From the IMG/VR virus record IMGVR_UViG_2778261593_000002, positions 1 through 10,619 of that record: 10,619 bases of DNA. One strand, written 5' to 3'. Position 1 is the first letter of the stretch, and each line of letters opens with the position of its first letter. Shown here piece by piece: positions 2,866-10,394 of this stretch. The notes under the pieces were generated by a model. The model was not told the DNA's origin, made no database searches, and was given only the letters and a program-made list of their open reading frames with translations. The DNA is from a virus (Duplodnaviria > Heunggongvirae > Uroviricota > Caudoviricetes). The position numbers and the translations under genes are program-made.

Positions 2866-3021
2866 TTACTTCTCAGATTCGTAGTCTACGAAGACAGCAA
2901 CCTCCGTCTGGCCGGTTCGGATTCGTACCTCGCAGAGGTCTTTCCTCGTTACCAGTGCCGTCACTATGACGGTTAAACAGATGACGATCAGGGCGATTAA
3001 CATCGCCTTTTGCTGCTTCAT
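2866..3021 (-). CDS. hok: Hok/Gef-family type I toxin (small membrane peptide), 51 aa
   Basis: MKQQKAMLIALIVICLTVIVTALVTRKDLCEVRIRTGQTEVAVFVDYESEK is near-identical to Hok/Gef/RelF family sequences recalled from memory. ATG at 3021..3019 with AAGGAG Shine-Dalgarno 9 nt upstream. Confidence 0.9.
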   Translation of the reverse strand: MKQQKAMLIALIVICLTVIVTALVTRKDLCEVRIRTGQTEVAVFVDYESEK

Positions 3022-3078
3022 AGCCTGCTTCTCCTTGCCTTTCGGCACGTAAGAGGCTAACCTACATTTGTGAGACAT
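2866..3078 (-). CDS. mok: Mok-like in-frame N-terminally extended reading frame sharing the hok stop codon (70 aa)
   Basis: ATG at 3078..3076 with GAGG about 9 nt upstream; in frame with hok and adds 19 residues (MSHKCRLASYVPKGKEKQA). This mirrors the mokC/hokC arrangement (longer frame sharing the 3' end). Confidence 0.55.
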   Translation of the reverse strand: MSHKCRLASYVPKGKEKQAMKQQKAMLIALIVICLTVIVTALVTRKDLCEVRIRTGQTEVAVFVDYESEK

Positions 3079-3120
3079 AGATTGGGCCTCAGATTAATGT
3101 TAAGCGTCTTGCAGGACGCG
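3035..3120 (+). ncRNA. Candidate Sok-like antisense RNA region (promoter plus RNA) opposite the mok translation initiation region
   Basis: Plus strand TTGCCT (3035-3040) - 17 nt - TAACCT (3058-3063) would start transcription near 3070, antisense to the mok Shine-Dalgarno/ATG (3076-3095). A hairpin GCGTC-TTGCAG-GACGC lies at 3104-3119 but no clean U-run follows. Weak evidence. Confidence 0.25.
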
Positions 3121-3179
3121 TAATGTTAACTGGGGCTTTTCTCTATCTGCCTTTTGGTGTTCATGCCTGAGGCAGATAG

Positions 3180-3225
3180 CCTCAAGCACCCGCAGCAATT
3201 CTACTTAACTCTCCTTTTCCCGCAA
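3180..3225 (-). promoter_or_regulatory. Putative hok/mok promoter and mRNA 5' end
   Basis: Minus strand TTGCGG (3225..3220) - 16 nt - TAGAAT (3203..3198); predicted start near 3191, which coincides with the 5' partner (3193..3180) of the fold-back pairing. A 9-bp hairpin CTATCTGCC / GGCAGATAG (3144-3179) lies in the leader. Confidence 0.4.
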
Positions 3226-7405: not shown

Positions 7406-7831
7406 TTAGTGCATCACCAGGGCATTTCCCGCCGGACCACCACGATTCATCTGATTGAAACCAGCGATCGCCACTGCGACAAAATCATCAGCGTCTCTCA
7501 CCAGTCGCTCCCGCGTCTCCACCAGCTCCCGAAAATAAGCTGAACTGTGGCTGCGCATTCTGGCCACCAGCAAAGGTGGCATTGCCTTTTCGATCGCTGG
7601 TAACAACGCCTGAATTTTTTCAACTGCATCAGGGGTGTCTTTCTCTACCCAGCGGAAAATTTTCTGGGTATTGCGAGCCAGGGCTTCCGGATGGCTGTCG
7701 TCATACAGTTCCGGGAACGTCATTCCCAGCTCGAAATACGCTTTGGTAATTTTCGCAGCCGGTACTTTTTCGCCGTCCGGATGCGCCCAGGCATTCATCG
7801 CCATGCGGATGTGTTCATGCTTGATTTTCAT
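7406..7831 (-). CDS. YdaT-like protein (reported CII functional analog of Rac-type prophages), 141 aa
   Basis: N-terminus MKIKHEHI and C-terminus ending VMH match what I recall of E. coli Rac YdaT; start overlaps the cro-like stop (ATGA); GGGGG Shine-Dalgarno upstream. Confidence 0.6.
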   Translation of the reverse strand: MKIKHEHIRMAMNAWAHPDGEKVPAAKITKAYFELGMTFPELYDDSHPEALARNTQKIFRWVEKDTPDAVEKIQALLPAIEKAMPPLLVARMRSHSSAYFRELVETRERLVRDADDFVAVAIAGFNQMNRGGPAGNALVMH

Positions 7832-8058
7832 GAATCCCCCCCTTGGTTAGAAGGCGGATTATGATCAGAACCGGGAATGACAACCGTCGGTATGTGTAAC
7901 TCATATTTGAGCGCCCCGGCAGTGACTGCCTGAATTAGCAACGCCCATTTCCACGGAACCTCTTCCCCCCACATGCTGACTGTGGTTTTTGACGTTCCTA
8001 GAGCTGCGGCTGTTTTAACAACTCCGCCAAAATAGCCTAATACTTCTGATTTTTTCAT
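7828..8058 (-). CDS. Cro/YdaS/DicC-like small HTH regulator, 76 aa
   Basis: ORF 7828..8106 trimmed to ATG at 8058..8056 with GGAG 7 nt upstream; HTH-like segment VVKTAAALGTSKTTVSMW; divergent from the CI-like gene across a 91-bp operator region. Confidence 0.65.
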   Translation of the reverse strand: MKKSEVLGYFGGVVKTAAALGTSKTTVSMWGEEVPWKWALLIQAVTAGALKYELHIPTVVIPGSDHNPPSNQGGDS

Positions 8059-8151
8059 GAGTCGCTCCATAAAACTGAACGTCAAAAGTTTAATAATCAA
8101 AACCAAAAAAAGTCAAGAAACAAAACCATCTGTGTTTTAAAATCAAAACAT
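8059..8151. promoter_or_regulatory. Divergent immunity control region (OR-like): PR-like and PRM-like promoters with a palindromic operator
   Basis: Perfect inverted repeat TGTTTT-aaaatc-AAAACAT at 8133-8151, overlapping the CI start codon and a TAAAAT -10 (8138-8143). Minus strand has TTGACT at 8116..8111 followed by AT-rich -10 candidates for the cro-like gene. No Shine-Dalgarno precedes the CI ATG, suggesting a leaderless transcript. Confidence 0.55.
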
Positions 8152-8788
8152 GAGCAAGCAAACTATATCTGAACGCATAACCCAACGTATGCATGCGCTA
8201 AACCTGAAAGGCAAAGACCTTGTCAATGGCACTGGCGCATCAAAAGGCTCCGTAAGTCAATGGATGAACGGTGGAGGAGCGCCGTCCTCGCGTTACATAA
8301 GTTCACTGGCAAAAATATTGAAAGTAAACGAAAATTGGCTTCTTAATGGAGGAGAGTTAAATACAGGTGATTCGCTTGATCTATCTTTACCGCCGATAAA
8401 AACGGTTCCGCTACTATCACTTCAGCAGGCAGCAAGCTGGAGTGATTATATGAAAAATTCCTCAATAACCTCTTGTGTGCAGCTTGTCGGAGAAATCCCG
8501 GTCAATACCTTTGCAGTTGTTCTAGAGAGTGACAGTATGTCAACATCTGGTGGGGGAGTTTCCATCCCAAATGGTTCAACAGTTTTTGTTGATCCCGATC
8601 GAACCGTACAACCAGGAAATATTGTCCTTGCCTTACCCAAAGGGACCACAACACCTGTCATTCGTAAACTGGAGATAGAAGGGCCGGATATTCTTTTAGT
8701 CCCCACGAATCCTCGCTACCCTTCAATTATGCTGGATGATCTATCTTGCATATTGGGCGTATGCTTTAAAATTCAACAAGATATTTAA
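8150..8788 (+). CDS. CI-type prophage repressor with N-terminal HTH and C-terminal S24 (LexA-like) autopeptidase domain, 212 aa
   Basis: N-terminal HTH (ISERITQRMHALNLKGKDLVNGTGASKGSVSQW); C-terminal ESDSM...VFVDPDR...VIRKL...LVPTNPRYPSI parallels lambda CI motifs GDSM / VDPE / KKL / LNPQYPMI. Confidence 0.85.
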   Translation: MSKQTISERITQRMHALNLKGKDLVNGTGASKGSVSQWMNGGGAPSSRYISSLAKILKVNENWLLNGGELNTGDSLDLSLPPIKTVPLLSLQQAASWSDYMKNSSITSCVQLVGEIPVNTFAVVLESDSMSTSGGGVSIPNGSTVFVDPDRTVQPGNIVLALPKGTTTPVIRKLEIEGPDILLVPTNPRYPSIMLDDLSCILGVCFKIQQDI

Positions 8789-8854
8789 CCAACCTCATCT
8801 ATTTGATTAACTGTATGCCATCGTGGTGATGGCTTAACAGCTGCCTGCTTAAAA

Positions 8855-8901
8855 TGTTTTGATAAAAAAACATTGACCTGAAAAGTTCGTTTTTCTAAAC
8901 T
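8855..8901 (+). promoter_or_regulatory. Promoter of the ydfABC-dicF-dicB-like operon with a second copy of the operator palindrome
   Basis: TTGACC (8873-8878) - 17 nt - TAAACT (8896-8901), preceded by an A-tract. Operator-like TGTTTT-gataaa-AAAACAT at 8855-8873 overlaps the -35 and has the same half-sites and spacing as the site at 8133-8151. Confidence 0.5.
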
Positions 8902-9080
8902 TCATTCATTCCCTCACCCCATCCTACAGAATGCAGGGCAATACTTCGAGTTACCAGGCAGTGGTCAGGGGTTAAGTAGCCAGCCCGAGGCGTAAGAACA
9001 TGACGGCAGGGTTCAACTTTAATAACTATGCAGCAGGTTTTTGTTCCGCTACCCCGGCGTTAAGGGGAAATGAGGTCAGC

Positions 9081-10337: not shown

Positions 10338-10394
10338 TTCTGGTGACATTTGGCGGTATCAGTTTTACTCCGTGACTGCTCTGCCGCCCTTTTT
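10338..10394 (+). ncRNA. dicF: DicF small regulatory RNA with its Rho-independent terminator
   Basis: TTCTGGTGACATTTGGCGGTATCAGTTTTACTCCGTGACTGCTCTGCCGCCCTTTTTT matches the E. coli DicF sequence as I recall it with one or two substitutions; GGCGG...CCGCC stem followed by a T-run; position between ydfC-like and dicB-like genes. Confidence 0.8.

What the first reader, a model, noticed from the sequence alone, without database searches (positions are those of the whole stretch)
8133..8873. Shared 19-bp operator palindrome at both repressor-controlled promoters; likely leaderless cI
The same inverted repeat TGTTTT-N6-AAAACAT occurs at 8133-8151, overlapping the CI start codon and a TAAAAT -10, and at 8855-8873, overlapping the -35 of the ydfA-side promoter. 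This defines the probable immunity operator of this prophage. The CI ATG has no Shine-Dalgarno motif and lies 7 nt after the -10, implying a leaderless mRNA as for lambda PRM.
Basis: seen in the sequence. Interest (0 to 1): 0.5.

Follow-up and report, generated by a model that had tools for sequence, protein, structure and literature searches.

The report
Prophage immunity operator, probably leaderless repressor
The two matching 18-bp palindromes are real and are most likely the repressor-binding sites of a common E. coli lambda-like prophage whose repressor mRNA probably starts at its own AUG; this is a tidy new example of a well-known design, not a new kind of system.

Summary
TGTTTT-N6-AAAACA occurs exactly twice in the window, at 8133-8150 and 8855-8872, with none expected by chance. 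It occurs nowhere else in 49.9 kb spanning a whole prophage that carries this module.

The first site covers a TAAAAT -10 and the first base of the ATG of a 212-aa lambda-type cI (HTH plus S24 peptidase). The second site abuts the -35 of TTGACC-17-TAAACT, the promoter of the ydfA-dicF-dicB operon (the PL/dicBp equivalent).

They cover the -10 and -35 of the divergent cro promoter, giving a lambda-like three-part OR. In variants whose cI is 84% identical, substitutions fall in the linkers between these blocks (Fisher p = 2e-4).

Leaderless cI is not shown but is well supported:
- There is no Shine-Dalgarno pairing.
- ATG 8150 is the true start.
- The -10-N6-ATG geometry matches CP-933P paaR2, which is experimentally leaderless. 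Rac racR also has a mapped leaderless transcript. Both lie on the same YdaT backbone.

This operator specificity is apparently undescribed. About 19% of complete E. coli genomes carry the module. I rate it a new member of a known kind, of modest interest. Public annotations truncate this repressor gene.

The parts
7828..8058 (-). cro-like gene (76 aa, P22_Cro family). ATG at 8058-8056, SD GGAG 7 nt upstream.
   Evidence: Pfam PF14549, E = 9e-16. Anti-SD duplex -5.6 kcal/mol. Coordinates.
8087..8116 (-). PR-like promoter for cro and ydaT: -35 TTGACT (8116-8111), 18-nt spacer, -10 TAAACT (8092-8087). Predicted +1 near 8080.
   Evidence: Consensus scan, 9 of 12 matches. Both hexamers are invariant in the 84% variants. 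The start site is inferred.
8087..8104 (.). OR1, a degenerate operator: AGTTTAATAATCAAAACC (9 of 12 half-site positions). It covers the PR -10.
   Evidence: Repeat family D1. 23-bp phasing of CAAAAC. The block is invariant apart from its edge position 8104 in L006 and L007. It is the third-best PWM score in the window, but it was in the training set.
8110..8127 (.). OR2, a half-operator: AAGTCAAGAAACAAAACC. The right half is good and the left half is poor. It covers the PR -35 and the predicted PRM -35.
   Evidence: Direct repeat D2, 23 bp from OR1. CAAAAC at 8121. Invariant in L006 and L007 while the flanking linkers vary.
8133..8150 (.). OR3, a perfect palindrome: TGTTTTAAAATCAAAACA. It covers the PRM -10, the predicted +1 and the A of the cI ATG.
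   Evidence: Exact match with none expected by chance. Conserved, with a single A8145G change in the L007 group.
8138..8150 (+). Predicted PRM core: -10 TAAAAT (8138-8143), 6-nt gap, predicted +1 at A8150, the first base of the cI AUG. The -35 is weak (AAGAAA, 8115-8120).
   Evidence: Sequence. The same geometry occurs in CP-933P paaR2, GATAAT-N6-ATG, which has a mapped start site. The start site here is inferred.
8150..8788 (+). cI repressor, 212 aa: N-terminal HTH domain, linker, and S24 peptidase domain with Ser129 and Lys173.
   Evidence: Pfam. PDB alignments to lambda cI, 434 repressor and P22 C2. The ORF is intact in 87 of 89 loci. The synonymous/non-synonymous pattern supports M1 as the start.
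8811..8840 (+). Conserved hairpin (GCCATC-GTGGT-GATGGC with an outer CUGU/ACAG stem) between the cI stop and OL. It may be a 3' end or terminator element for cI; it has no U-tract.
   Evidence: -12.6 kcal/mol, z = -2.0. The stem is conserved and the loop varies. L003 has a canonical terminator at the same place.
8855..8872 (.). OL, a perfect palindrome: TGTTTTGATAAAAAAACA. It abuts the -35 of the ydfA-side promoter and is centred near -44.5.
   Evidence: Exact match. Its reverse complement shares ATCAAAACA with OR3 and OR1. Conserved in variants.
8873..8901 (+). PL/dicBp-equivalent promoter: TTGACC, 17-nt spacer, TAAACT. Predicted +1 near 8908.
   Evidence: Consensus scan, 9 of 12. The hexamers are invariant while the spacer (8880-8882, 8889) is a polymorphism hot spot. 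Analogous to dicBp in K-12 (PMC10448788).
8884..8901 (.). Possible weak second OL site, AGTTCGTTTTTCTAAACT, over the PL -10. Tentative.
   Evidence: Best untrained PWM hit in the window, but only just above background (9.6 against 9.5) and partly circular, because the OR1 half-site is the complement of the TAAACT -10. Variants TGTTTG (L007) and TGTTCG (O157) match the left half better.

Best explanation
The window carries the immunity cassette (about 7835-8915) of a lambdoid prophage. The cassette sits on the backbone shared with Rac, Qin and CP-933P: cro, then a YdaT-type CII analogue and replication genes on one side; cI, then ydfABC-dicF-dicB on the other.

The 18-bp palindrome tGTTTt-N6-aAAACa is the operator recognised by the dimeric HTH repressor cI and, as in other lambdoid switches, probably also by Cro. 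It occurs as follows:
- OR3, a perfect copy over the -10 and +1 of the cI promoter and the cI start codon.
- OL, a perfect copy abutting the -35 of the ydfA/dicB promoter.
- OR1 and OR2, two degenerate in-phase copies (23 bp apart) over the -10 and -35 of the cro promoter.

In a lysogen, cI bound at OR1 and OR2 would shut off cro and ydaT. Bound at OL, it would shut off the toxic dicB/dicF operon by blocking the -35 and upstream contacts, possibly helped by a weak site over the -10 or by OL-OR looping across 722 bp. Bound at OR3, it would limit its own synthesis. After SOS cleavage (an S24 Ser129/Lys173 dyad is present), Cro binding at OR3 would silence cI.

The cI mRNA made from the promoter inside OR3 most likely begins at, or within 1-2 nt of, the A of AUG 8150 and is translated without a leader.

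Shown here: the sequences, their non-randomness, their conservation, the gene identities, the true start codon and the absence of an SD. Inferred: binding, which protein prefers which site, the direction of regulation at each site, and the transcription start.
For: - Exact palindrome at two sites only, none expected by chance. It is also unique within 49.9 kb covering a whole prophage.
- Three-part OR: CAAAAC at 8098, 8121 and 8144, and repeat families D1 and D2.
- Phylogenetic footprint: against loci with 84% cI identity, 5 of 6 (L006) and 4 of 5 (L007) substitutions in 8087-8150 fall in the 10 linker positions (Fisher p = 2e-4 and 1.5e-3).
- Among 86 near-identical loci, the common OR polymorphisms lie at 8082 and 8108. 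One is just outside OR1 and the other is in the OR1-OR2 linker, so both lie outside the operators.
- The OL block and the PL hexamers are conserved, while the PL spacer is polymorphic.
- Gene identities.
- The cassette boundaries coincide with the promoters, and heteroimmune cassettes between the same flanks each carry their own palindrome at both places. L003 has GTAAC-N4-GTTAC, L091 has TACCYAYRGGTA, Rac has TTAGGC-N2-GCCTAA, and Qin has TTAGY..CTAA.
- Leaderless support: no SD; M1 is the start; TAAAAT-N6-ATG.
- A 5-of-6 hexamer at gap 6 or 7 recurs in the window, L091 and Tritos and, as GATAAT (which lacks the first T the chance test required), in CP-933P; L003 has a 4-of-6 hexamer at gap 8. 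The chance of a qualifying hexamer at gap 6 or 7 is 1.5-4% per module.
- Leaderless transcripts are experimentally shown for CP-933P paaR2 (PMC8630535) and Rac racR PracR3 (PMC9638921).
Against: - There are no binding or start-site data for this module.
- The predicted PRM is weak (-35 AAGAAA, 8 of 12 overall) and the consensus scan did not call it.
- The strongest OR site sits on the repressor's own promoter, and OR2 overlaps the predicted PRM -35. The lambda logic of OR1 > OR2 > OR3 with activation from OR2 therefore cannot simply be transferred.
- OL lies upstream of the -35 (centre about -44.5), a position where lambda cI activates rather than represses.
- The other cassettes examined (L003, L091, Tritos, Rac, Qin) place an operator inside the PL core. 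Here only a marginal candidate exists there.
- OR1 is individually unremarkable: seven 3-mismatch hits occur in the window. OR2 scores poorly as a full site, ranking 59th.
Confidence: 0.72

Rival explanations
1. The operators are as described, but cI is mainly translated from a leadered transcript. That transcript would start upstream, either from a YdaT-activated PRE-like promoter at the ydaT/cro junction or from the promoter-like site at 8015-8044. Initiation at AUG 8150 would then use the A/U-rich, SD-less upstream sequence. TAAAAT would be operator sequence only, not a -10.
For: - A PRE activated by YdaT exists in CP-933P, and the 5' end of ydaT here is identical to that study's primers.
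- A TTAACA-18-AATACT match lies at 8015-8044 on the + strand.
- The predicted PRM has a poor -35.
- The sequence before the AUG is A/U-rich and only weakly structured (-3.6 kcal/mol).
Against: - The same -10-like hexamer at 6-7 nt from the ATG recurs in independent heteroimmune cassettes.
- Two of those cassettes have mapped leaderless transcripts.
- A lysogen needs a maintenance promoter that does not depend on the lytic-side activator.
- The -10 at 8039-8044 is not strictly conserved: AATACT becomes AAAACT in L006 and L007.
- This rival is compatible with a PRE transcript existing in addition to a leaderless one.
Confidence: 0.2
2. The perfect palindromes (OR3 and OL) are primarily Cro sites, which would shut off cI and turn down PL during lytic growth. 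cI would instead recognise the in-phase, pseudo-symmetric or direct repeats (A/T)CAAAAC(C/A) at OR1 and OR2. The palindrome would then not define cI specificity as such.
For: - In lambda, and in CP-933P (YdaS), the Cro analogue binds the PRM-proximal site first.
- The three CAAAAC elements are direct repeats 23 bp apart.
- The CP-933P authors also noted both direct and inverted repeats.
- The best site lies on the repressor's own promoter.
Against: - In characterised lambdoid switches, cI and Cro share the same operators.
- OR1 keeps both GTTT and AAAC cores with the same N8 spacing as the palindrome.
- No data separate the two proteins.
Confidence: 0.2
3. The site at 8855-8872 is not a repressing operator for the ydfA-side promoter. 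It would be an A/T-rich UP-like element, or a site from which bound cI is neutral or activating. Repression of the dicB operon would be achieved elsewhere, for example by Rho-dependent termination in the conserved C-rich leader.
For: - The centre is at about -44.5, upstream of the -35.
- The sequence is A-tract rich.
- The leader at 8920-9000 is C-rich and unstructured (z = +1.7) and is shared by all cassettes.
- No convincing operator lies inside the PL core.
Against: - The site is an exact copy of the OR3 half-sites, not generic A/T sequence.
- Rac, L091 and Tritos also place an operator directly abutting the PL -35.
- DicA represses dicBp 22-fold in Qin.
- The dicB and dicF products are toxic, so tight repression is expected.
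Confidence: 0.08
4. The match is a chance coincidence of two A/T-rich inverted repeats, or the arms act as RNA hairpins rather than as DNA operators.
For: The region is A/T-rich. Both sites can fold as short hairpins.
Against: - None of 200 shuffles gave even one exact match.
- The palindrome is unique within a 50-kb prophage context.
- It is conserved across diverged variants.
- The RNA hairpins are weak: -3.6 kcal/mol (z = -0.2) and -5.7 kcal/mol.
- The OL site lies upstream of the predicted PL start.
Confidence: 0.01

Closest known systems
CP-933P / Sp12 immunity region of E. coli O157:H7 (PaaR2-YdaS-YdaT; Jurenas et al. 2021, PMC8630535)
   Same: - Same prophage backbone. The 5' end of ydaT here is identical to that study's YdaS-RT1 and F-PRE primers.
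- Divergent repressor and cro-analogue genes are separated by 97 bp there and 91 bp here.
- Equally spaced 18-bp palindromes overlap PR and PRM and are repeated at PL.
- The repressor gene has -10-N6-ATG and no SD, and is leaderless there by 5' RACE and N-terminal sequencing.
- The PR hexamers are TTGACT and TAAACT in both.
   Different: - The repressor there is PaaR2, which has no sequence similarity to lambda cI and is followed by the paaA2-parE2 toxin-antitoxin pair. Here it is a 212-aa cI with an S24 peptidase domain.
- The Cro analogue there is an HTH_XRE YdaS. Here it is a P22_Cro-family protein.
- The half-site there is GTTTAGTAA (GTTT-N10-AAAC), with four palindromes. Here the core is GTTT-N8-AAAC, with three sites.
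- The PRM-proximal palindrome is centred at about -19.5 there and -8.5 here.
Bacteriophage lambda OR/OL, PRM and leaderless cI
   Same: - cI has an HTH domain plus an S24 C-terminal domain.
- OR is three-part with 23-24 bp spacing. OR1 and OR2 lie over the -10 and -35 of PR at nearly the same positions: -15.5 and -38.5 here, against -17 and -41 in lambda.
- The same operator type occurs at PL.
- cI is followed downstream, in the same direction, by the PL operon.
- PRM is weak (8 of 12 consensus matches in both).
- The cI mRNA is leaderless.
   Different: - The operator sequence and the repressor N-terminal domain are unrelated in detail.
- The PR-to-PRM start distance is 70 bp here (predicted), against 82-83 bp in lambda. 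OR3 therefore covers the -10 and +1, and OR2 covers the PRM -35.
- Only one strong OL site is present, and it lies upstream of the -35.
- The best sites are OR3 and OL, not OR1 and OL1.
- The putative cleavage site is Ala94-Ala95, not Ala-Gly.
- The lambda positions quoted here come from my own knowledge of the lambda map.
Rac (RacR-YdaS-YdaT) and Qin (DicA-DicC, dicBp) cryptic prophage immunity regions of E. coli K-12
   Same: - Same flanks: YdaT, the conserved leader and ydfA.
- The operator is repeated at OR and at the PL/dicBp promoter.
- The PL -35 is TTGACC in Qin as here.
- An operator abuts the PL -35 in Rac.
- The strongest racR promoter gives a leaderless transcript.
- DicA represses dicBp.
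   Different: - RacR and DicA lack the S24 domain and are not SOS-cleavable. Here the repressor has a LexA-type C-terminal domain.
- The operator sequences differ: TTAGGC-N2-GCCTAA in Rac and TTGTTAGTCATAACTAACAA in Qin.
- Both Rac and Qin have a clear operator inside the PL core promoter, which is not evident here.
434 and P22 repressor/operator systems
   Same: The N-terminal domain aligns from residue 1 with 434 repressor and P22 C2. The Cro is of P22_Cro type. The operator is an A/T-rich palindrome of 14-18 bp.
   Different: Sequence similarity of the DNA-binding domain is low (E = 1e-3 to 1e-4). The operators are ACAA-N6-TTGT (434) and ATTTAAG-N4-CTTAAAT (P22), both quoted from my own knowledge and neither related to TGTTTT-N6-AAAACA. 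No phage record with a characterised switch shares this N-terminal domain; the best outside this prophage type is 47% identity, in Acinetobacter phages.

Membership tests
Lambdoid immunity region (cI-OR-cro plus OL/PL) | Divergent genes for a cI-type repressor (HTH N-terminal domain) and a small Cro-type regulator | tested here: met
   HTH_3 and Peptidase_S24 in the 212-aa ORF; P22_Cro in the 76-aa ORF. PDB matches to lambda cI, 434 repressor and P22 C2.
Lambdoid immunity region (cI-OR-cro plus OL/PL) | Several related operators in the short intergenic region, overlapping two divergent promoters | tested here: met
   Three blocks at 23-bp spacing cover TTGACT/TAAACT on the - strand and TAAAAT on the + strand. 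The footprint pattern gives Fisher p = 2e-4.
Lambdoid immunity region (cI-OR-cro plus OL/PL) | The same operator at a second early promoter (PL) beyond the repressor gene | tested here: met
   An exact copy at 8855-8872 abuts TTGACC-17-TAAACT. It lies upstream of the -35 rather than inside the core promoter.
Lambdoid immunity region (cI-OR-cro plus OL/PL) | Repressor and Cro bind these operators and repress PR and PL | not testable with these tools
   Needs EMSA, footprinting or reporter assays.
LexA/cI-type self-cleaving repressors (S24) | Ser-Lys catalytic dyad and an Ala-Gly (or Cys-Gly) cleavage site in the hinge | tested here: inconclusive
   Ser129 (DSM) and Lys173 (RKL) align with lambda S149 and K192. 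The position aligned with lambda Ala111-Gly112 reads Ala94-Ala95 followed by Ser.
Leaderless mRNA (lambda cI PRM type) | No Shine-Dalgarno sequence and an AUG (not GUG or UUG) start codon | tested here: met
   Anti-SD duplex +0.9 kcal/mol, against -3.9 to -11 for neighbouring genes. ATG at 8150. No in-frame start lies upstream. M1 is confirmed as the start.
Leaderless mRNA (lambda cI PRM type) | A -10 element placed so that transcription starts at the A of the AUG | tested here: met
   TAAAAT at 8138-8143, 6-nt gap, A8150. This is identical in geometry to the mapped CP-933P PRM, GATAAT-N6-ATG.
Leaderless mRNA (lambda cI PRM type) | A mapped 5' end at the start codon, and protein made from that transcript | not testable with these tools
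   No start-site data for this module were found in the searchable literature.
Rac/Qin/CP-933P-backbone heteroimmune cassettes | Cassette flanked by a YdaT-family gene on the cro side and by the conserved leader and ydfA on the repressor side, with alternative cassettes between identical flanks | tested here: met
   YdaT_toxin Pfam match. Two-piece flank matches in E. coli genomes. L003, L091, Tritos and Rac were examined.
434 or P22 immunity specificity | The operator sequence and recognition domain of that phage | tested here: not met
   The operator differs from both. The N-terminal domain is only distantly similar. No characterised phage shares it.

The most novel reading that the evidence does not exclude
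Leaderless repressor mRNA, with an operator laid directly over the -10, the +1 and the AUG, may be a conserved design rule of the whole Rac/Qin/CP-933P-backbone prophage family, across unrelated repressor folds and specificities.

This particular cassette may also run a non-lambda logic. Its strongest operator sits on the repressor's own promoter, giving purely negative autoregulation. A single OL upstream of the -35 would then repress the dicB operon only through OL-OR looping over 722 bp.

A subsidiary possibility is that the conserved internal SD-ATG at 8450 yields a protein consisting of the C-terminal domain only, which could modulate repressor oligomerisation or cleavage.
Probability: 0.2. 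Interest if true: 0.5.

Novelty: new member of a known kind. Interest (0 to 1): 0.33.

Why it matters
It gives testable operator and promoter coordinates for an immunity type carried by about one in five complete E. coli genomes (1042 of 5426), including O157:H7. This immunity type controls the toxic dicB/dicF cell-division inhibitors.

It extends to an SOS-type (S24) cI the pattern of leaderless repressor genes already shown for two relatives.

It also exposes a systematic annotation error. Because the gene has no ribosome-binding site, RefSeq/PGAP calls only the C-terminal 113 aa and a GenBank phage record starts at Met14, although the 212-aa ORF is intact. Prophage-induction predictions that rely on finding an HTH-S24 repressor would miss it.

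Tried and rejected
- **RNA-structure reading of the palindromes.** The hairpins are weak (-3.6 and -5.7 kcal/mol; the first has z = -0.2). Rejected.
- **TAAAAT at 8850-8855 as an alternative PL -10.** It is not conserved (CTGTCA in L006; T>C polymorphisms at 8849 and 8850) and has no -35. Rejected.
- **A second strong OL at +/-23 bp.** None was found. The spacer at 8880-8891 is a polymorphism hot spot. Only a marginal site at 8884-8901 remains.
- **The operator-like 8762-8779 (TGCTTTAAAATTCAACAA, 4 mismatches), which is 100% conserved against L006.** This is not significant, given that about 0.7 such windows are expected.
- **Met14 or Met101 as the true cI start.** Rejected on the alignment of residues 1-69 with P22 C2 and on the 4-5 synonymous against 1 non-synonymous changes in codons 1-13.
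- **Genome-contig scan for diverged cI relatives.** It found nothing. The IMG/VR scan gave only 98-100% identical copies, so the footprinting rests on three to four metagenomic variants.
- **Rfam scan of the PL leader.** Nothing credible.
- **Literature search for the operator strings.** No hits.
- **Extended -10 (TGn) for PRM.** TG lies 3 nt, not 1 nt, upstream of TAAAAT. An alternative TGnTTTAAA reading would put +1 at about 8148, leaving a 2-nt leader. This cannot be excluded.
Full report

Yes. The window reads TGTTTTAAAATCAAAACA at 8133-8150 and TGTTTTGATAAAAAAACA at 8855-8872. A search for TGTTTT-N6-AAAACA finds exactly these two sites in 10.6 kb. None of 200 dinucleotide-preserving shuffles gave a single match. 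Allowing two mismatches adds one site, which is at chance level.

I fetched 49.9 kb that includes a whole prophage with the same module (E. coli strain 190, 99.9% identical over the 1301-bp query). There the palindrome occurs only at the two homologous places, with no 1-mismatch copies. The four 2-mismatch hits compare with 1.8 expected.

TAAAAT lies at 8138-8143, six bases (CAAAAC) before the ATG at 8150. The second copy ends at 8872, and TTGACC begins at 8873. It therefore abuts the -35 rather than overlapping it; only the T of the 19/20-bp version is shared.

**2. What surrounds it?**

- The ORF at 8150-8788 (212 aa) has an HTH_3 N-terminal domain and a Peptidase_S24 C-terminal domain. It aligns with full-length lambda cI, and its N-terminus (residues 1-69) aligns with P22 C2 and 434 repressor.
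- Divergently, 8058-7828 encodes a 76-aa P22_Cro-family protein with a GGAG Shine-Dalgarno sequence. It is followed by a YdaT-family protein (the CII position) and an HTH_36 replication-initiator-like protein.
- Downstream of cI lie ydfA, ydfB, ydfC and DicF RNA. This is the operon called dicBF in Qin, whose promoter dicBp is the PL analogue and is repressed by DicA (PMC10448788).
- A consensus scan finds TTGACT-18-TAAACT on the minus strand (8116-8087) driving cro, and TTGACC-17-TAAACT (8873-8901) driving ydfA.

**3.

Repeat finding shows a third copy at 8087-8105 (AGTTTAATAATCAAAACCA). It also shows a 22-nt direct repeat, 8084-8105 and 8107-8128, spaced 23 bp apart. CAAAAC occurs at 8098, 8121 and 8144, exactly 23 bp apart. 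ATCAAAAC is shared by OR1, OR3 and the reverse complement of OL. The sites are:

| Site | Coordinates | Sequence | Covers |
|---|---|---|---|
| OR1 | 8087-8104 | AGTTTAATAATCAAAACC | PR -10 |
| OR2 | 8110-8127 | AAGTCAAGAAACAAAACC | PR -35; good right half only |
| OR3 | 8133-8150 | perfect palindrome | cI -10, +1 and ATG |
| OL | 8855-8872 | perfect palindrome | abuts PL -35 |

Relative to the predicted PR start (about 8080), OR1, OR2 and OR3 are centred at -15.5, -38.5 and -61.5. By my recollection of the lambda map, the lambda values are -17, -41 and -64.

**4. Conservation.**

The 1.3-kb region is present at 80% coverage or more in 1042 of 5426 complete E. coli genomes.

Metagenomic variants whose cI is 84% identical (L006-L009) keep all three OR blocks and the OL block, and differ in the linkers. 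In 8087-8150, 5 of 6 (L006) and 4 of 5 (L007) substitutions fall in the 10 linker positions rather than the 54 operator positions (Fisher p = 2e-4 and 1.5e-3).

Among 86 near-identical loci, the common OR polymorphisms are at 8082 and 8108. The first is just outside OR1 and the second is in the OR1-OR2 linker, so both lie outside the operators. At PL, the spacer positions 8880-8882 and 8889 are hot spots, whereas TTGAC, TTTTTCTAAACTT and the palindrome are stable.

The only half-site changes seen (A8145G and T8860A in the L007 group) hit the symmetric innermost positions 13 and 6. The recognised core is therefore probably tGTTT-N8-AAACa.

**5. It is a swappable immunity cassette.**

Many genomes match only the flanks: the ydaT start, and the stretch from about 8915 onward. 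Between those flanks other cassettes occur, each with its own palindrome in both regulatory regions:

- L003: GTAAC-N4-GTTAC.
- L091: TACCYAYRGGTA.
- Rac: TTAGGC-N2-GCCTAA.
- Qin: the experimentally supported Oc, TTGTTAGTCATAACTAACAA, with relatives at dicBp.
- Phage Tritos: GTAC-based sites.

This supports reading the palindrome as the specificity determinant of this cassette.

In the other cassettes examined, an operator lies inside the PL core, and in Rac, L091 and Tritos another abuts the -35. Here only the site abutting the -35 is clear. A PWM built from OR1-3 and OL picks 8884-8901 (over the PL -10) as the best untrained hit. Its score barely exceeds background, and the test is partly circular because the OR1 half-site is the complement of the TAAACT -10. 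I list it as tentative.

**6. Leaderless cI.**

*The start codon.*
- No in-frame start exists upstream of 8150.
- Helix 1 of the HTH domain (ISERITQRM) precedes Met14, and residues 1-69 align with P22 C2.
- Codons 1-13 show 4-5 synonymous against 1 non-synonymous difference from the 84% variants.

*The ribosome-binding site.* The 25 nt upstream give +0.9 kcal/mol with the anti-SD sequence. cro, ydaT, the O-like gene, ydfA, ydfB and ydfC give -3.9 to -11.

*The geometry.* TAAAAT-N6-ATG places +1 on the A of the AUG. In CP-933P, GATAAT-N6-ATG precedes paaR2. That study reports a 5' RACE start coinciding with the translation start, and N-terminal sequencing consistent with translation from that transcript (PMC8630535). 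In Rac, the strongest racR promoter, PracR3, gives a leaderless transcript by primer extension and -10 mutagenesis (PMC9638921).

L091 (TATTAT-N6), Tritos (TATCAT-N7) and L003 (TAACAT-N8) show comparable hexamers with no SD. In shuffled intergenic sequence, a qualifying hexamer at gap 6 or 7 appears in 1.5-4% of trials per module. That test required TANNNT at gap 6 or 7, so CP-933P (GATAAT) and L003 (gap 8) fall just outside it.

The cassette also shares its backbone with CP-933P: that study's YdaS-RT1 and F-PRE primers match 7799-7823 and 7803-7822 of the window.

The inference is therefore strong by analogy and geometry, but it remains untested for this cassette. A start at about 8148, using a TGnTTTAAA extended -10, would leave a 2-nt leader and cannot be excluded.

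**7. How it probably works, and where it departs from lambda.**

*Inferred model.*
- cI dimers at OR1 and OR2 block PR.
- cI at OL blocks the -35 and upstream contacts of PL, possibly aided by a weak -10 site or by OL-OR looping across 722 bp.
- cI at OR3 limits its own promoter.
- After SOS cleavage (Ser129/Lys173 align with the lambda dyad), Cro at OR3 silences cI.

*Departures from lambda.*
- The predicted PR and PRM starts are 70 bp apart. OR3 is therefore centred at -8.5, and the weak PRM -35 (AAGAAA, 8115-8120) lies inside OR2, back-to-back with the PR -35 (8111-8116). Lambda-style activation from OR2 is not implied.
- The perfect sites are OR3 and OL rather than OR1 and OL1.
- The hinge reads Ala94-Ala95, not Ala-Gly.

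Which protein prefers which site cannot be decided from sequence. In CP-933P, the Cro analogue fills the PRM-proximal site first.

**8. Novelty.**

The design is textbook lambdoid. Leaderless repressor genes are documented for lambda, CP-933P and Rac.

The specific operator and the repressor's DNA-binding domain are not those of any characterised phage. The best N-terminal-domain match outside this prophage type is 47% identity, in Acinetobacter phages. The operator strings do not occur in the searchable literature. I therefore rate it a new member of a known kind.

A practical by-product concerns annotation. The 212-aa ORF is intact in 87 of 89 loci, yet public annotations truncate it:
- PGAP annotates only the C-terminal 113 aa in strain 190 and in O157:H7 86-24. 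That call starts at Met101, which has a GGAG SD.
- A GenBank phage record starts at Met14.

**9. Rivals.**

- *A leadered cI transcript as the main source.* This would come from a YdaT-activated PRE or from the 8015-8044 promoter-like site. It remains possible, and probably exists in addition to a leaderless transcript.
- *Preferential Cro binding to the perfect palindromes.* This also remains possible.
- *A non-repressing role for the OL site.* This is unlikely, given its exact identity to the OR3 half-sites and the same placement in Rac, L091 and Tritos.
- *Chance, or RNA-hairpin readings.* These are rejected.

Noticed in passing
window 8432-8455 (ATG at 8450, Met101 of cI); L139 9651-9989; L001 2150-2488: An internal in-frame ATG with a good SD (GGAG, -5.9 kcal/mol) lies just after the putative hinge. 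PGAP uses it as the gene start and annotates only a 113-aa 'LexA family protein', although the 212-aa ORF is intact. Codons 89-101 (8414-8452) are almost invariant at the nucleotide level against the 84% variants. Whether a protein consisting of the C-terminal domain only is made is unknown.
   Followed up: partly
window 8811-8840: A conserved hairpin (GCCATC-GTGGT-GATGGC plus an outer CUGU/ACAG stem; -12.6 kcal/mol) lies between the cI stop and OL. It has no U-tract. Its loop varies and its stem is conserved in variants. The heteroimmune cassette L003 has a canonical intrinsic terminator at the same place (L003 1516-1541).
   Followed up: partly
window 8920-9000 (aligned in A3 with L003, L090 Rac, L091, L092, L006): The leader downstream of the PL-type promoter is nearly invariant across heteroimmune cassettes, including Rac. 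It is C-rich at its 5' end and less structured than shuffles (z = +1.7), and it has no Rfam match. It could be a Rho-utilisation or antitermination site, or part of a longer ydfA ORF starting at ATG 9000 (78 aa, SD -5.9 kcal/mol).
   Followed up: partly
window 7794-7835: The most conserved patch near the cassette's left boundary carries TTCATC/TTCATG repeats at 7794, 7814 and 7827. It is identical to the primers used to clone the YdaT-activated PRE of CP-933P. It is a candidate PRE/YdaT-binding region that would read antisense through cro toward cI.
   Followed up: no
L003 794-840: In the heteroimmune cassette of strain RIVM_C036569, PGAP starts the repressor 43 codons upstream (ATG 794). The homologous start (MKNTISERI, ATG 837) abuts a GTAAC-N4-GTTAC operator and has no SD. 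This is probably another mis-called start of a leaderless repressor gene.
   Followed up: partly
L004 2501-3037 and about 3105-3125: A metagenomic variant carries a 34-aa in-frame deletion of the cI linker (178 aa). The A-run of its OL palindrome is one base shorter, giving half-site spacing N5. It may be a decaying copy or an assembly error in a homopolymer.
   Followed up: no
window 8429-8437 (residues 94-96): The position that aligns with the lambda cI Ala111-Gly112 cleavage site reads Ala-Ala-Ser. RecA-dependent self-cleavage therefore cannot be assumed, despite an intact Ser129/Lys173 dyad.
   Followed up: no
window 3016-3191 (-) and 10338-10389 (+): Rfam gathering-score matches to the sok antitoxin RNA (hok/sok locus, with hokD annotated in strain 190) and to DicF sRNA. 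Both confirm the Qin-like gene content of this prophage.
   Followed up: no
L139 9016-9259: In strain 190 the cro gene is annotated as frameshifted, while cI and all the operators are intact. That copy may be locked in the repressed state.
   Followed up: no
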